A stretch of DNA of 58,511 nt from Gemmatimonadota bacterium (GCA_017889745.1 JAGGAG010000001.1:1-58511), one strand, 5' to 3'. Counted from the first letter of the stretch, positions 46,713 through 52,578 are shown. Numbers and translations: made by a program. Notes: generated by a model from the letters alone, not told the origin.

Positions 46713-46741
46713 CATAAGTCATTATATAACAAATACTTATG
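46713..46741 (+). promoter_or_regulatory. inverted repeat CATAAGT-N15-ACTTATG spanning a TATATAAC -10-like box and the imuA ATG
   Basis: Read directly from the sequence. The right arm contains the start codon (46739-46741). The spacer holds the palindrome TTATATAA. This is the only strongly AT-rich patch in the 290-nt intergenic region. Confidence 0.45.
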
Positions 46742-47488
46742 CAAATAGCCCAGCTTCGGTCCCGACTCGAGCAGATCATCGCCCCACCGGTGGTGGCGAC
46801 CGATGCCATCCCCACCGGGTTCCACGAGCTCGATGAGGCGCTGGGCGGTGGGATTCCGCGCGGGCGGCTCACCGAGCTCATCGGTCCGGTCGGTGCGGGC
46901 ACGGCGACGCTGGTGCGGGCACTGGTCGGTGCCGCCCTGGCCCGGGGCCAGGGTGTCGCCTGCATCGATGCCTCGCGCACCCTCGATCCCGCCGACTGGG
47001 CATCGCTCGATTGCGATTTCCTCCGCGTGGTGCGCCCGCGCGACCCCGCGCGCGGGGCCTGGTGTGCCGATGTGCTGCTGCGGAGCGGCGCCTTCACCCT
47101 CGTGGTGCTCGACAGCGCGCCATCGCTCGCGCGGCAGGTGGCGCTTCGCCTCGTCGCCCTCGCGCGCGACAAGGACGCGGCGTTCGTCGTGGTGGGCGAT
47201 GGATCGGTGTCGCAGCTGGGCGGGGCCGTGCGGATGGAGGTGAAGCGCCGATGGGGCGGAGGTGGCCAGCGGCGGCCATCCGAACTGACCGTTCTTCGCG
47301 GCGGGCTTCGTACCACCATTGAGGTGCCGAGTGTCATCTATCATCCGCGTCGCCTGTGTGCGCATCCCGAAGTTCCCGATCGGCGCGGTGTGGCTGGAGG
47401 AAAGCAGCAACCGGGCATCCAGGCGGCCGGCCGATCCGACAAGCGATGGAAGGGTGCCCGAAACGGGGGACGGGTCCCCGGCCGATAA
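46739..47488 (+). CDS. imuA: ImuA (RecA/SulA-fold mutasome component)
   Basis: IPTGFHELDEALGGGIPRGRLTELIGPVGAGTATLV is a degenerate Walker A lacking Lys, typical of ImuA. Position is first in the imuA-imuB-dnaE2 order. The last ~52 codons overlap imuB out of frame. Confidence 0.8.
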   Translation: MQIAQLRSRLEQIIAPPVVATDAIPTGFHELDEALGGGIPRGRLTELIGPVGAGTATLVRALVGAALARGQGVACIDASRTLDPADWASLDCDFLRVVRPRDPARGAWCADVLLRSGAFTLVVLDSAPSLARQVALRLVALARDKDAAFVVVGDGSVSQLGGAVRMEVKRRWGGGGQRRPSELTVLRGGLRTTIEVPSVIYHPRRLCAHPEVPDRRGVAGGKQQPGIQAAGRSDKRWKGARNGGRVPGR

Positions 47489-51900: not shown

Positions 51901-52578
51901 ATCGAGCGCGCGCTCAACGAGCGGCCGTTCAGCTCCGTCGCCGATGTCGTGATCCGCACCGGTCTCGATCGTGGCGCGCTGCGCGCCCTGGCGGAAGCGG
52001 GTGCGCTCGACTGCCTCGTGGCGCATGAATCACCGGAACGGCGCCGGCGCATGGCGCTGTGGGAAGTACTGCGTGCCGAGCGTGGCGTGGCGGGGCCGCT
52101 GGCAGGCGGCGGGGCGACAGGGCGGCAGGAGGCGGTCCTTCCTCCCATGACACCGTACGAACTGACAGAAGCCGATTACCGCATGACCGCGCTCTCACTC
52201 AACGGGCATCCCATGGCCCACTTGCGGAAGGAAATGCGGCGGCTCGGCGTGGTGTGCGCGTCCAACCTGGAGGGCGGCAAGGCTTGCCGCGATGGAGACA
52301 CCGTCCTCGTCGCAGGCCTCGTCATCTGCCGCCAGCGCCCCGGAACCGCCAAGGGGTTTGTCTTCCTGACGCTCGAGGACGAAACCGGCCTGGTCAACGT
52401 CATCGTGACACCCAGGCGGTTCGAGCAGCAGGCGCTGCTCATCGCGCGGAGCCCGCTCCTGCTCGTTCGAGGGACCTTGCAGATCGAGGGTCATGTAGTG
52501 AACGTGCGCGGGGAGGAATTCCGCCTCCTCAACGCTCCCGTGGGTGCCGAGCATGCCCGGCGGCACGATTTTCACTGA
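48895..52578 (+). CDS. dnaE2: error-prone DNA polymerase III alpha subunit DnaE2
   Basis: PHP N-terminus YVELHCHSCFSLLDGA and a Pol III alpha core (PDIDLDIAH, IHVGGFVL, DLLGLGMLT, FQVESRAQM, IRPGP, LFQEQ). Has a C-terminal OB fold and follows imuB. ATG 48895 overlaps the imuB stop (ATGACTGA); GTG 48880 is an alternative start. Confidence 0.95.
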   Translation: MTDAVLPSDYVELHCHSCFSLLDGAASPEGLIDRARALGQHALALTDHDDLGGVVRFSEAGRARGVEAIIGAELTIMVNGERSTVDGTTPPTPFTVHRSPFTSLVLLAESSTGYANISTLVTRGRMDCPRGEPAVPLELLARHAGGITALTSGPHGWVPSLLAAGNAEGARRAACALRDIYGDHLVIECWDHGLPEERELAEQLMPMAGWLGVPWVVTNDVHYAHPQDRRVHDVLAALRHKTTLDQMGTRLRPNGEWYLKSAAQMTRRWQHAPEGVRATRAVAERCAFRLEQLRPTLPEFPLPPGVGEDEYLERLVYQGAEERLKREQSTVNGEGESRQSSSRSLFTVHRSLSGGIPPAYESQLAHELAVIARLGLAGFFLIVWDIVRFARRNGILCQGRGSAANSVVCYCLGITAVDPVKMNLLFERFLSEERAEPPDIDLDIAHRERERVLQYVYERYGREHAAMVCEQISWRGRSAVRDAARVLGFSVQQAEALAAFSDRFSAKATADALRGRAAADAYTQDNPECTDAVGGRDGKDKGDDDLAFFSPASVRRRDAEKRALANTLGQQMIPGTEAKTKADAVKRMFYGDPHAEQDHVERRNPVTSLVGSTEATSVLAKAGLDPDDPRVALLADLVEGLHQLPRHRSIHVGGFVLTREPLSRIVPIEPASMPGRTVIQWEKDDLDPVGLVKIDLLGLGMLTLLQDCLLYIRRTRGVSLDLGTIPVDDQAVYDDLCRADTIGLFQVESRAQMNTLPRMKPRAFYDLVVEVALIRPGPIQGDMVHPFLRRRAGLEEVTYPHPSLEPVLKRTLGVPLFQEQGMQVAIAAAGFTPGQADELRRAMGHKRSHERMAEIAEQLVEGMAKNGIDADTARRIYQQINAFADYGFPESHAASFALLVYASAYLRHYYPPEYTAAILNAQPMGFYSPGTLVEDARRHGVEVKPVDALRSGWDATLEVAGRGSRIVRDVKRAQDSRPTTHDPAVRLGFRSIRGLGTAAREKIERALNERPFSSVADVVIRTGLDRGALRALAEAGALDCLVAHESPERRRRMALWEVLRAERGVAGPLAGGGATGRQEAVLPPMTPYELTEADYRMTALSLNGHPMAHLRKEMRRLGVVCASNLEGGKACRDGDTVLVAGLVICRQRPGTAKGFVFLTLEDETGLVNVIVTPRRFEQQALLIARSPLLLVRGTLQIEGHVVNVRGEEFRLLNAPVGAEHARRHDFH
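49126..49199. repeat. heptad palindrome, GTGAACG family (copy B), in frame in dnaE2
   Basis: GTGAACG GTGAACG GTCAACG GTAGACG, an 18-nt loop, then CGTTTAC TGTTCAC CGTTCGC CATTCAC. Confidence 0.85.
49871..49948. repeat. heptad palindrome, GTGAACG family (copy C), in frame in dnaE2
   Basis: GTGAACA GTCAACG GTGAACG GTGAAGG, a 22-nt loop, then CGTTCAT TGTTTAC TGTTCAC CGTTCAC. It is 78 nt, or 26 codons. Confidence 0.85.
51768..51841. repeat. heptad palindrome, GTCGCGG family, in frame in dnaE2
   Basis: GTCGCGG x3 (51769-51789), a ~31-nt loop, then CACGACC x3 (51821-51841). The arms are complementary except for one C.A position per unit. Confidence 0.8.

What the first reader, a model, noticed from the sequence alone, without database searches (positions are those of the whole stretch)
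46739..52578. imuA-imuB-dnaE2 mutasome cassette peppered with heptad-palindrome insertions
The three genes form the classic SOS-mutagenesis cassette, which is established knowledge. What is unusual is where the structured repeats sit. Of the five heptad- or octamer-built repeats I can find in 58.5 kb, four lie inside the coding sequence of this one operon.
- Three are in dnaE2 (49126, 49871, 51768).
- One is in imuB (48622).
- All four keep the reading frame open.
- DnaE2 comes to about 1227 aa, clearly longer than the roughly 1000-1100 aa I recall for DnaE2 proteins.

In-frame palindromic elements in proteins are known from Rickettsia (RPEs). I am not aware of them being described for mutasome genes, or with this 7-nt unit architecture. 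Possible explanations are:
- selfish MITE/REP-like elements tolerated in surface loops
- mRNA hairpins that throttle expression of a dangerous polymerase
- hot spots created by the polymerase's own activity
Basis: partly seen in the sequence, partly recalled or inferred. Interest (0 to 1): 0.7.

Follow-up and report, generated by a model that had tools for sequence, protein, structure and literature searches.

The report
Seven-base repeat hairpins inside mutasome genes
Three very stable DNA hairpins built from tandem 7-base units sit in frame in surface loops of the error-prone polymerase gene dnaE2, and across 83 loci from at least two bacterial phyla such repeats are at least 13 times denser in the three mutasome genes than in neighbouring genes, which nobody has yet explained.

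Summary
The window is a contig of a Gemmatimonadota metagenome-assembled genome with an imuA-imuB-dnaE2 cassette. dnaE2 carries three heptad-built hairpins, each in frame and free of stop codons:
- E1, 49126-49199
- E2, 49873-49953
- E3, 51768-51842

imuB carries a purine-rich octamer tract that does not fold. A fourth hairpin, E0 (40919-40986), is intergenic.

The hairpins belong to a dispersed family that is almost entirely intergenic in Gemmatimonadales genomes. E2 is a clean 81-nt insertion missing from close relatives. In structure models all three inserts fall in low-confidence loops.

The enrichment is general. Across 83 dnaE2 loci, period-7 arrays per kb are:

| Region | Arrays per kb |
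|---|---|
| dnaE2 | 0.20 |
| imuB | 0.24 |
| imuA | 0.22 |
| other coding sequence | 0.015 |
| intergenic | 0.20 |

The heptad differs by lineage, and the same few loops are used repeatedly. An unbiased genome scan found credible coding copies only in imuB (twice) and the repair helicase lhr.

Partial precedent exists: REPs inside repair genes, including dnaE2, were reported in 2013. Why the mutasome genes are favoured is unresolved. Tolerance alone looks insufficient. I found no covariation and no sense-strand bias to support an mRNA role.

The parts
46739..47488 (+). imuA-like gene (RecA-fold accessory protein of the mutasome)
   Evidence: Pfam RecA scores 57.2 bits, above its cut-off of 27. 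The NCBIfam ImuA model scores 57 bits, below its cut-off of 150. It has the same position as RecA_N-type genes upstream of imuB in relatives. No heptad array lies in this copy.
47319..48902 (+). imuB (inactive Y-family polymerase homologue). The start codon is uncertain and the ORF overlaps imuA and dnaE2.
   Evidence: Pfam IMS scores 31.4 bits (cut-off 23.2), with weak DNA polymerase IV hits. It is 42% identical to the ImuB homologue in L034.
48596..48660 (+). Purine-rich octamer tandem tract (CGGCAAGG and variants) in a variable ImuB loop. It encodes GRAAGRQEEGGKAARRQEDRR and is not a hairpin.
   Evidence: Tandem Repeats Finder reports period 8, 6.6 copies. Folding gives z = -0.45. In L034 and L065 the same ImuB loop holds GTGAACG-type heptad repeats. 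The same octamer occurs in dnaE2 loops of relatives.
48895..52578 (+). dnaE2, the error-prone DNA polymerase (1227 aa from the annotated start; the ORF is open from 48880)
   Evidence: NCBIfam NF004225 scores 1244.7 bits (cut-off 939). The Pfam domains are PHP, DNA_pol3_alpha, finger, HHH_6 and OB. It is identical to P0001 from a Gemmatimonadetes MAG.
49126..49199 (+). E1: heptad hairpin (GTGAACG)4-loop-(CGTTCAC)4 in the PHP-domain beta-hairpin loop (site 1, aa 86-103 of the 1232-aa ORF)
   Evidence: Repeats. RNA minimum free energy -44.5 kcal/mol, z = -7.2. It is shared by 7 orthologues, and L001 lacks the left arm and loop. The unit whose TGA would fall in frame reads TCA in all 7. The arms diverge 0.11 per site against 0.36 at 4-fold sites. 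pLDDT is below 50.
49873..49953 (+). E2: 81-nt in-frame insertion forming a GTGAACG-type heptad hairpin (site 2, between the PHP and palm domains)
   Evidence: The gap is exactly 81 nt in L001 and L002. It is also present in a second assembly (P0395), while P0396, 94% identical, has a CACGACC-type array there instead. Minimum free energy -43.8 kcal/mol, z = -8.5. pLDDT is below 50 between two helices. The region does not align to Taq Pol III alpha.
50496..50514 (+). Short remnant of the octamer family (CGGCAAGGA x2) in the lineage-specific middle insert of DnaE2. Weak evidence.
   Evidence: Tandem Repeats Finder row. The aligned position in L002 carries a full octamer array. The region has low pLDDT.
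51768..51842 (+). E3: heptad hairpin (GGTCGCG)3-loop-(CACGACC)3 in a beta-hairpin loop before the HhH domain (site 3, aa 967-986)
   Evidence: Repeats. Minimum free energy is -51.5 kcal/mol on the sense strand and -56.3 on the antisense strand. It is shared with L201; the same site in relatives holds (CTCACGA)3 or (GGCAAGGC)3-4 arrays. pLDDT is below 50. It corresponds to a 19-aa gap against Taq Pol III alpha.
40919..40986 (.). E0: intergenic member of the same GTGAACG hairpin family, between two minus-strand genes
   Evidence: Repeats. Minimum free energy -50.9 kcal/mol, z = -8.5. An orthologous copy lies at L002 1888-1948.

Best explanation
The hairpins are copies of a lineage-specific family of repeat elements, each built as (heptad)n-loop-(reverse-complement heptad)n. 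In Gemmatimonadales this family is common and almost entirely intergenic, mostly downstream of genes.

Shown:
- Copies have entered the mutasome genes. E2 is a discrete 81-nt insertion.
- They survive only where the length is a multiple of three, in-frame stop codons have been lost, and the extra peptide falls in one of four or five disordered surface loops of DnaE2 or in the variable linkers of ImuB and ImuA.
- The arrays then change length and type. They differ by 21 nt (three units) between near-identical proteins, and different heptads or octamers occupy the same loop in close relatives.
- The association with imuA, imuB and dnaE2 is real and general, not a quirk of this contig.

Inferred:
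- The bias most likely comes from preferential formation or insertion of these hairpin repeats in DNA-damage-induced genes. One route would be single-stranded DNA exposed at strongly induced SOS genes, at the time when hairpin elements are mobilised or template-switch repair is active.
- Weak selection on a rarely expressed, dispensable polymerase probably helps, as does renewed activity at loops that already hold an array.
- No benefit to the cell has been demonstrated.
For: Family and location:
- Nearly all of these copies are non-coding. Their contexts are 19 tandem, 13 convergent and 6 divergent.
- A perfect (GTGAACG)3 has TGA in all three frames. In E1 and E2 the in-frame unit reads TCA.

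Insertion and loops:
- E2 is an 81-nt insertion.
- The inserts coincide with pLDDT below 50 between confident secondary-structure elements and with gaps or unaligned stretches against Taq Pol III alpha.

Enrichment across 83 loci:

| Region | Arrays | kb |
|---|---|---|
| dnaE2 | 53 | 261 |
| imuB | 21 | 87 |
| imuA | 6 | 27 |
| other CDS | 10 | 688 |
| intergenic | 29 | 147 |

- Binomial P = 5e-26.
- Roughly half of the 10 'other CDS' arrays lie just upstream of the dnaE2 match start, at the imuB-dnaE2 junction, or at the end of an ORF.
- All 83 dnaE2 ORFs are intact.
- Arrays cluster at aa 86-103, 967-986 and about 1050, with lineage-specific heptads.
- A second phylum is involved, Acidobacteriota (Pyrinomonadaceae).
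- Arrays in mutasome genes co-occur with intergenic arrays in the same locus (Fisher P = 1.8e-4).

Independent genome scan: the only credible coding copies were in ImuB (twice) and Lhr.

Turnover: changes at above 90% protein identity are shown.

Precedent: REPs inside repair genes, including DnaE2, are reported in PMC3733652.
Against: - No transposase, target duplication or conserved core was found, so how the elements spread is unknown.
- Loop sequences of E0, E1 and E2 are unrelated.
- The link to DNA-damage induction is inferred. The only other SOS or repair gene with a copy is lhr, and the LexA regulon of these organisms was not defined.
- E1 arms evolve about three times more slowly than 4-fold sites in the same gene. 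This suggests constraint, or homogenisation, that a purely passive element would not show.
- Gene calls in the flanks are my own heuristic.
- Arrays that are related by descent are not independent counts.
Confidence: 0.55

Rival explanations
1. Adaptive cis-regulation. The hairpins are kept because they act in the mRNA, or in the DNA, to hold expression of a mutagenic polymerase very low. They could do this as RNase III or degradation sites, as ribosome roadblocks, or by occluding the dnaE2 start.
For: - The stems are very stable and 21-33 bp long.
- E1 arms, including their third codon positions, are more conserved than synonymous sites elsewhere in the gene (P = 0.013 and P < 5e-5).
- Several loci have arrays right at the imuB-dnaE2 junction.
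- All three cistrons are affected.
Against: - There are no compensatory changes in 28 pairs across 7 orthologues, and the C-C mismatch left by the stop-avoiding TCA unit is never repaired.
- The sense strand folds no better than the antisense strand: antisense is more stable in 12 of 18 hairpins, with 33 G-U pairs on the sense strand against 61 on the antisense.
- Many intragenic arrays are single-armed.
- Array type turns over quickly at the same site.
- The idea does not explain the copy in lhr, or the REPs in uvr and rec genes reported in the literature.
Confidence: 0.2
2. Contingency switch. Tandem units whose length is not a multiple of three gain or lose single units by slippage, reversibly shifting imuA, imuB or dnaE2 out of and back into frame. 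Populations would then carry mutasome-ON and mutasome-OFF cells.
For: - The enrichment is specific to 7- and 8-nt periods. Period 8 is about 3 times denser in dnaE2 than in other CDS, period 6 only about 1.5 times, and period 9 or longer is absent from dnaE2.
- Some arrays have 4-7 near-perfect units.
- Near-identical proteins differ by exactly 7 aa, which is three units. The arrays therefore do slip, and only in-frame outcomes are seen.
Against: - All 83 dnaE2 ORFs are intact across their arrays.
- E1 has the same unit number in 7 orthologues.
- Most arrays are short and imperfect.
- The one frame break seen at an array (P0401) is best read as a single G lost from a G6 run, on a contig with other frame breaks. 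That probably reflects sequencing error (the reading is my inference from the peptides).
- The hairpin arrangement is not needed for such a switch.
Confidence: 0.1
3. Self-inflicted signature. The arrays are generated by the ImuA-ImuB-DnaE2 machinery itself, through slippage or template switching during gap filling. This would act preferentially on its own, strongly induced operon.
For: - All three mutasome genes are enriched to the same level as intergenic DNA.
- Density at the few hot loops exceeds the intergenic density.
- The only other coding host found is a damage-repair helicase.
Against: - There is no direct evidence.
- The arms of E2 match a family consensus that is spread across the genome, not local sequence.
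- Heptad arrays are common in intergenic DNA. GTGAACG arrays also occur in many other phyla, whose mutasome status was not examined.
Confidence: 0.1
4. No special association. The inserts are ordinary variable-loop sequence, or ancestral protein sequence, and the clustering is chance plus general tolerance of DnaE2 loops.
For: - DnaE2 loops are length-variable in both clades examined.
- Period-6 repeats are also modestly enriched, about 1.5 times.
Against: - Period-7 arrays are 13 times or more denser than in 688 kb of neighbouring coding sequence (P = 5e-26).
- E2 is a discrete insertion.
- The heptads match each lineage's own intergenic arrays in 7 of 14 loci that have both.
- An unbiased scan hit imuB twice and lhr once among the coding copies.
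Confidence: 0.05

Closest known systems
REP elements (GTAG- and CGTC-tagged) found inside replication and repair genes, Di Nocera et al. 2013, BMC Genomics 14:522 (PMC3733652)
   Same: - Short palindromic repeats that are mainly intergenic, lying between tandem and convergent genes.
- Occasionally found in frame inside genes.
- The intragenic copies concentrate in DNA synthesis and repair genes. The paper explicitly includes DnaE2, and in some species these are the only coding targets.
   Different: - REPs are single 20-40 bp stem-loops with 8-9 bp stems, 4-5 nt loops and a GTAG or CGTC tag.
- The elements here have 21-33 bp stems made of tandem 7-nt units, variable loops and no tag.
- Gemmatimonadetes are not mentioned in that paper, and heptad-built families are not described there.
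- No RAYT transposase link was tested here.
- The enrichment was not quantified in that paper.
Rickettsia palindromic elements (RPE)
   Same: Palindromic repeats inserted in frame into protein-coding genes, adding a peptide segment that the protein tolerates. This is from general knowledge and is also cited in PMC3733652.
   Different: - RPEs are longer elements with a conserved family consensus, in an obligate intracellular lineage.
- They are not built from tandem heptads.
- They are spread over many kinds of genes.
Heptanucleotide tandem repeats of cyanobacteria (STRR) and the TAACTGA repeats of Beggiatoaceae, Cyanobacteria and Bacteroidetes (MacGregor 2015, PMC4679880)
   Same: Genome-wide families of tandem 7-nt units, mostly intergenic, specific to a lineage, with no known way of spreading.
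   Different: - Those are direct repeats. One inverted set was noted among 170 in the Beggiatoa genome.
- They lie mostly just upstream of start codons.
- They are not reported as hairpins in repair genes.
Simple-sequence contingency loci (phase variation by slipped-strand mispairing)
   Same: Tandem units whose length is not a multiple of three, inside coding sequence. Unit number changes are seen between near-identical alleles.
   Different: - The tracts here are short and imperfect, and mostly paired with an inverted copy.
- No out-of-frame alleles were seen in 83 genes.
MITEs
   Same: Small non-autonomous repeats with inverted ends that can sit in frame in genes.
   Different: - E2 has no target-site duplication.
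- There is no conserved internal sequence.
- The arm copy number varies.

Membership tests
imuA-imuB-dnaE2 mutasome cassette | A DnaE2-type C-family polymerase | tested here: met
   NCBIfam NF004225 (error-prone DNA polymerase) scores 1244.7 bits against a cut-off of 939. The Pfam domains are PHP, DNA_pol3_alpha, finger, HHH_6 and OB.
imuA-imuB-dnaE2 mutasome cassette | An ImuB (Y-family-like) gene immediately upstream of dnaE2 and overlapping it | tested here: met
   Pfam IMS scores 31.4 bits (cut-off 23.2). The ORF 47319-48902 overlaps the dnaE2 start. Loss of catalytic residues was not examined.
imuA-imuB-dnaE2 mutasome cassette | An ImuA (RecA-fold) gene upstream of imuB | tested here: inconclusive
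   Pfam RecA scores 57.2 bits, above its cut-off. The NCBIfam ImuA model scores only 57 bits against a cut-off of 150. Position and fold fit, but the curated threshold is not reached.
imuA-imuB-dnaE2 mutasome cassette | LexA/SOS control | not tested
   I only noted an AT-rich TAAGT-N15-ACTTA inverted repeat just upstream of the imuA ATG. I do not know the LexA motif of this phylum.
REP elements (GTAG / CGTC superfamilies) | A single short stem-loop (8-9 bp stem) with a terminal GTAG or CGTC tag | tested here: not met
   The stems are 21-33 bp, made of 3-4 tandem heptads, with no tag at the ends.
REP elements (GTAG / CGTC superfamilies) | Mostly intergenic, between tandem or convergent genes | tested here: met
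   Contexts are 19 tandem, 13 convergent and 6 divergent (using my own gene calls). About 56 of 63 copies are non-coding.
REP elements (GTAG / CGTC superfamilies) | An associated RAYT (HUH tyrosine) transposase | not tested
   I did not search for RAYT genes in the fetched loci.
Rickettsia palindromic elements | In-frame insertion of a palindromic repeat into a conserved protein | tested here: met
   E2 is an 81-nt in-frame insertion. E1 and E3 lie in open frame within loops.
Rickettsia palindromic elements | Membership of an RPE sequence family | not tested
   I made no sequence comparison with RPEs. The heptad architecture and the host phylum are different.
MITE | Terminal inverted repeats plus a target-site duplication | tested here: not met
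   The E2 junctions show at most 1 nt of ambiguity and no duplication.
Contingency locus (slippage-driven phase variation) | A tandem tract inside a gene, with a unit length not divisible by three | tested here: met
   Units of 7 and 8 nt occur in dnaE2, imuB and imuA.
Contingency locus (slippage-driven phase variation) | Alleles differing by single units, some of them out of frame | tested here: not met
   All 83 ORFs are intact. The only variation seen is a three-unit, in-frame difference. Consensus assemblies cannot show minority variants.

The most novel reading that the evidence does not exclude
The heptad (and octamer) arrays are the footprint of a damage-linked process that specifically writes or lands short tandem and inverted repeats in the mutasome operon and other damage-induced repair genes. 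That process could be the mutasome acting on its own, strongly induced genes, or single-strand-dependent mobilisation of hairpin repeats during the SOS state. The arrays may also work as slippage switches that turn induced mutagenesis on and off.
Probability: 0.2. Interest if true: 0.9.

Novelty: new variant of a known kind. Interest (0 to 1): 0.72.

Why it matters
The mutasome (ImuA-ImuB-DnaE2) is the main source of damage-induced mutation in many bacteria.

In at least two phyla its three genes hold structured, non-triplet repeats at the density of non-coding DNA, while neighbouring genes hold almost none. This points to one of two things:
- an unrecognised mutational or mobility process tied to the DNA-damage response, or
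- an unrecognised layer of control or switching of induced mutagenesis.

It also turns a qualitative remark from 2013, that palindromic repeats seem to favour repair genes, into a measurable pattern with defined sites. That pattern can be tested in cultivable Gemmatimonas or Blastocatellia-type strains.

The practical point for annotation and modelling is that length variation in DnaE2 and ImuB is mostly repeat-derived loop sequence.

Tried and rejected
- **Protein search with an idealised arm peptide.** It found only short unannotated ORFs under 100 aa, which are miscalled intergenic arrays. It did not even recover DnaE2, so it says nothing about which proteins host degenerate copies. One search was rejected for an out-of-range parameter.
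- **Looking up the window's own contig through P0001.** No record was found.
- **Rfam.** There is nothing in the cassette, only a TPP riboswitch and a tRNA elsewhere.
- **Covariation test on E1.** There were no compensatory pairs, so no structural selection can be shown this way.
- **Sense versus antisense folding of 18 intragenic hairpins.** There is no sense-strand advantage.
- **Split dnaE2 fragments in protein clusters as possible OFF alleles.** The breaks are mostly away from arrays, and the one at an array looks like a homopolymer error, so I did not use them.
- **GTGAACG arrays in other phyla.** Only 5 of 98 clusters lie in long ORFs, and only the one in pheT looks credible. No repair genes appear there, which adds nothing for or against.
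- **MITE reading.** I rejected it because there is no target duplication and no conserved core.
- **Ancestral-sequence reading.** I rejected it because of the clean 81-nt gap and the lineage-specific heptads.
- **Metagenome scan for dnaE2 loci.** It returned mostly distant relatives (45-68% identity) rather than close ones. This proved useful as a broad sample, but I had to fetch close relatives one at a time.
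Full report
**What is in the window**

The window is identical to a 58,511-bp contig of a Gemmatimonadetes metagenome-assembled genome (MAG); protein P0001 matches at 100%.

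Three overlapping plus-strand genes form the cassette:
- A RecA-fold gene at 46739-47488. Pfam RecA scores 57 bits. The NCBIfam ImuA model scores 57 bits, below its cut-off of 150.
- An IMS-family gene at 47319-48902.
- dnaE2 at 48895-52578. The NCBIfam error-prone polymerase model scores 1245 bits against a cut-off of 939.

The gene order, and the neighbouring genes (glutamine synthetase, a hydrolase, PAP2, FdhD), are the same in relatives.

**Checking the observation**

| Element | Coordinates | Units | Location |
|---|---|---|---|
| E0 | 40919-40986 | (GTGAACG)4 / (CGTTCAC)4 | intergenic |
| E1 | 49126-49199 | (GTGAACG)4 / (CGTTCAC)4 | dnaE2 |
| E2 | 49873-49953 | GTGAACG type | dnaE2 |
| E3 | 51768-51842 | (GGTCGCG)3 / (CACGACC)3 | dnaE2 |
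| imuB tract | 48596-48660 | CGGCAAGG, purine-rich | imuB |

- Folded as RNA, the four heptad hairpins reach -44 to -51 kcal/mol, with z-scores of -4.1 to -8.5. None of 200 shuffles does as well.
- The imuB tract does not fold (z = -0.45).
- A perfect (GTGAACG)3 contains TGA in all three frames. In both E1 and E2, exactly the unit whose TGA would fall in frame reads GTCAACG. In E1 this holds in all seven orthologues.

**These are insertions in loops**

A DNA alignment with two relatives shows E2 as a clean 81-nt (27-codon) block. It is absent from L001 and L002, and there is no target duplication.
- A second assembly carries E2 (P0395).
- A 94%-identical protein (P0396) has a CACGACC-type array at that site instead.

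E1 is shared by the seven closest orthologues. L001 keeps only its right arm.

Site 2 and site 3 hold a different repeat in each close relative: (CTCACGA)3-4, (GGGAAGA)3, (GGCAAGGC)3-4, or nothing.

AlphaFold models of the two halves of DnaE2 place all three inserts in stretches with pLDDT below 50, between confidently predicted elements:
- E1 lies between two strands of the PHP domain.
- E2 lies between two helices.
- E3 lies between two strands ahead of the HhH domain.

Against Taq Pol III alpha, E3 is a 19-residue gap and E2 falls in an unaligned stretch.

**The hairpins belong to a dispersed, mostly intergenic family**

About 46 of them come from Gemmatimonadales MAGs, often several per MAG.
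- These copies are hairpins with variable arm number (2-14 units) and unrelated loops.
- Some have a second heptad nested inside.
- Almost all are non-coding. By my gene calls they lie mostly between tandem (19) or convergent (13) genes, rather than divergent ones (6).

I checked every copy that seemed to lie in an ORF. Most were N-terminal over-extensions or spurious antisense ORFs. The credible ones were:
- two ImuB homologues, L034 and L065. L034 is 42% identical to the window's ImuB, and its repeat sits in the same loop as the window's octamer tract.
- one Lhr repair helicase, L069.

This sample was chosen by the repeat alone, not by the gene.

**The enrichment in mutasome genes is general**

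I fetched 80 dnaE2 loci from metagenomes (45-68% protein identity to the window, G+C 51-71%). I added the window and two relatives, called genes, and labelled imuA and imuB by BLASTP.

| Region | Arrays | kb | Arrays per kb | Loci with an array |
|---|---|---|---|---|
| dnaE2 | 53 | 261 | 0.203 | 24 of 83 |
| imuB | 21 | 87 | 0.241 | 11 of 58 |
| imuA | 6 | 27 | 0.223 | 5 of 31 |
| other coding sequence | 10 | 688 | 0.015 | 8 of 79 |
| intergenic | 29 | 147 | 0.197 | 18 of 75 |

- The binomial P for mutasome genes against other coding sequence is 5e-26.
- Roughly half of the ten 'other' arrays lie at the imuB-dnaE2 junction or at the end of an ORF, so the true contrast is larger.
- Period-8 arrays show about a threefold excess, period 6 about 1.5-fold, and period 9 or longer is absent from dnaE2.
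- Every dnaE2 ORF is intact across its arrays.
- The heptad differs by lineage: GTGGACG, GTCCAAA, ATGGGAC, GAGGAAG, GTCTCAA and others. Many arrays are full hairpins of -50 to -70 kcal/mol.
- The arrays fall again and again in the same loops. In window numbering these are residues 86-103, 967-986 and about 1050.
- Loci with arrays in mutasome genes tend also to have intergenic arrays (Fisher P = 1.8e-4). In 7 of the 14 loci with both, a heptad is shared.
- The lower-G+C lineage I traced (locus L159; L136 shares its heptad) is Pyrinomonadaceae (Acidobacteriota). Its DnaE2 length ranges from 1015 to 1281 aa among proteins 75-95% identical. The pattern therefore spans at least two phyla.

**Dynamics and constraint**

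Within clusters of at least 90% identity, one Pyrinomonadaceae protein differs from another by exactly seven residues inside the site-1 array. That is three heptads. The arrays therefore change length, and the in-frame outcomes are what survive.

For E1 in seven orthologues:
- There are no compensatory changes in 28 pairs.
- The arms diverge by only 0.11 per site, against 0.36 at 4-fold sites and 0.32 at third positions elsewhere in dnaE2.
- Third positions within the arms diverge by 0.18 (bootstrap P = 0.013). All arm sites compared with third positions give P < 5e-5.

Something therefore slows change in the arms. It could be selection on the structure or the peptide, or homogenisation against other family members.

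Across 18 intragenic hairpins the sense strand folds no better than the antisense strand. Antisense is more stable in 12, with 33 G-U pairs on the sense strand against 61 on the antisense. I see this as an argument against a role specific to the mRNA.

**What is known**

- Di Nocera et al. 2013 (PMC3733652) reported that GTAG- and CGTC-tagged REPs found inside genes concentrate in replication and repair genes. They name uvrABCD, recBCD, polA and DnaE2, and in some species these are the only coding targets. They speculated about mutator effects.
- Their families are short tagged stem-loops. The paper does not mention Gemmatimonadetes and describes no heptad-built families.
- Heptamer direct-repeat families are known from cyanobacteria and Beggiatoaceae (PMC4679880).
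- I found no paper in the held library describing heptad hairpins in mutasome genes.

**Interpretation**

The descriptive part is well supported. These are copies of lineage-specific heptad-repeat hairpins, sitting in frame in disordered loops of mutasome proteins, and they are strongly and generally enriched there.

The cause of the enrichment is not settled. Tolerance alone seems too weak:
- The arrays are packed into a few loops, at a local density well above the intergenic one.
- This is so even though only one insertion in three would keep the frame.
- Hundreds of neighbouring genes, many surely dispensable, are almost free of arrays.

I favour a bias in where the repeats form or land, tied to the DNA-damage-induced state, helped by weak selection and by renewed activity at loops that already hold an array. 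This step is inference.

A regulatory hairpin role, a slippage switch, and generation by the mutasome itself remain possible. I rank them in the rival explanations.

Noticed in passing
window 1532-1632 (+) and 56793-56863 (+): A TPP riboswitch (69 bits) and a tRNA gene. These are the only Rfam matches in the window.
   Followed up: no
window about 46715-46739: An AT-rich stretch with the inverted repeat TAAGT-N15-ACTTA ends at the imuA start codon. It could be an operator or promoter for the cassette.
   Followed up: no
window 38876-38934: A hairpin whose left arm has (GTCAGTC)-like 7-nt periodicity lies between convergent ORFs. It looks like a terminator and may be a distant relative of the heptad family.
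   Followed up: no
L002 12809-12842 and 13106-13131; L204 5628-5658 and 5922-5956; L201 9166-9200: Inside dnaE2 of close relatives, octamer arrays (GGCAAGGC)n are followed about 260-300 nt downstream by the reverse-complement array (CTTGCCGC)n. The octamer family therefore also comes as inverted pairs, but at long range.
   Followed up: partly
L069 2054-6913 (-): An Lhr-type repair helicase of a Gemmatimonadales MAG carries an in-frame GTGAACG-family array (peptide PFTVHRSP). It was found by the repeat pattern alone.
   Followed up: partly
L010 3766-3887, L077 6227-6344, L012 1024-1198: Intergenic hairpins are often nested. Outer GTGAACG arms enclose inner arms of a different heptad (GTGAAAC, GTGAAAG or GTAAGCG), as if built in layers.
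   Followed up: no
Genome-contig loci L003-L120: Tandem GTGAACG arrays also occur in MAGs of many unrelated phyla, including Betaproteobacteria, Chloroflexota, Bacteroidota, Acidimicrobiia and Desulfobacterota. There the only credible coding copy is in pheT of a Dysgonamonadaceae MAG (L021).
   Followed up: partly
window 50390-50720 (DnaE2 residues about 505-615): A roughly 100-residue insert between the palm region and the rest of the polymerase is shared by Gemmatimonadales DnaE2 proteins and very variable in length. It has low pLDDT and holds octamer arrays in relatives.
   Followed up: partly
P0400 and P0401 (one 121,703-bp contig); P0398 and P0019 (one 301,239-bp contig): dnaE2 is split into fragments on some long contigs. 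One break lies in the site-2 array and looks like the loss of one G from a G6 run. Other breaks are away from arrays, so long-read indel error is the likely cause.
   Followed up: partly
L136 4256-4405; L123 9921-9971; L137 9903-9976: In several loci a heptad hairpin or array spans or abuts the imuB-dnaE2 junction, that is, the dnaE2 translation start.
   Followed up: no
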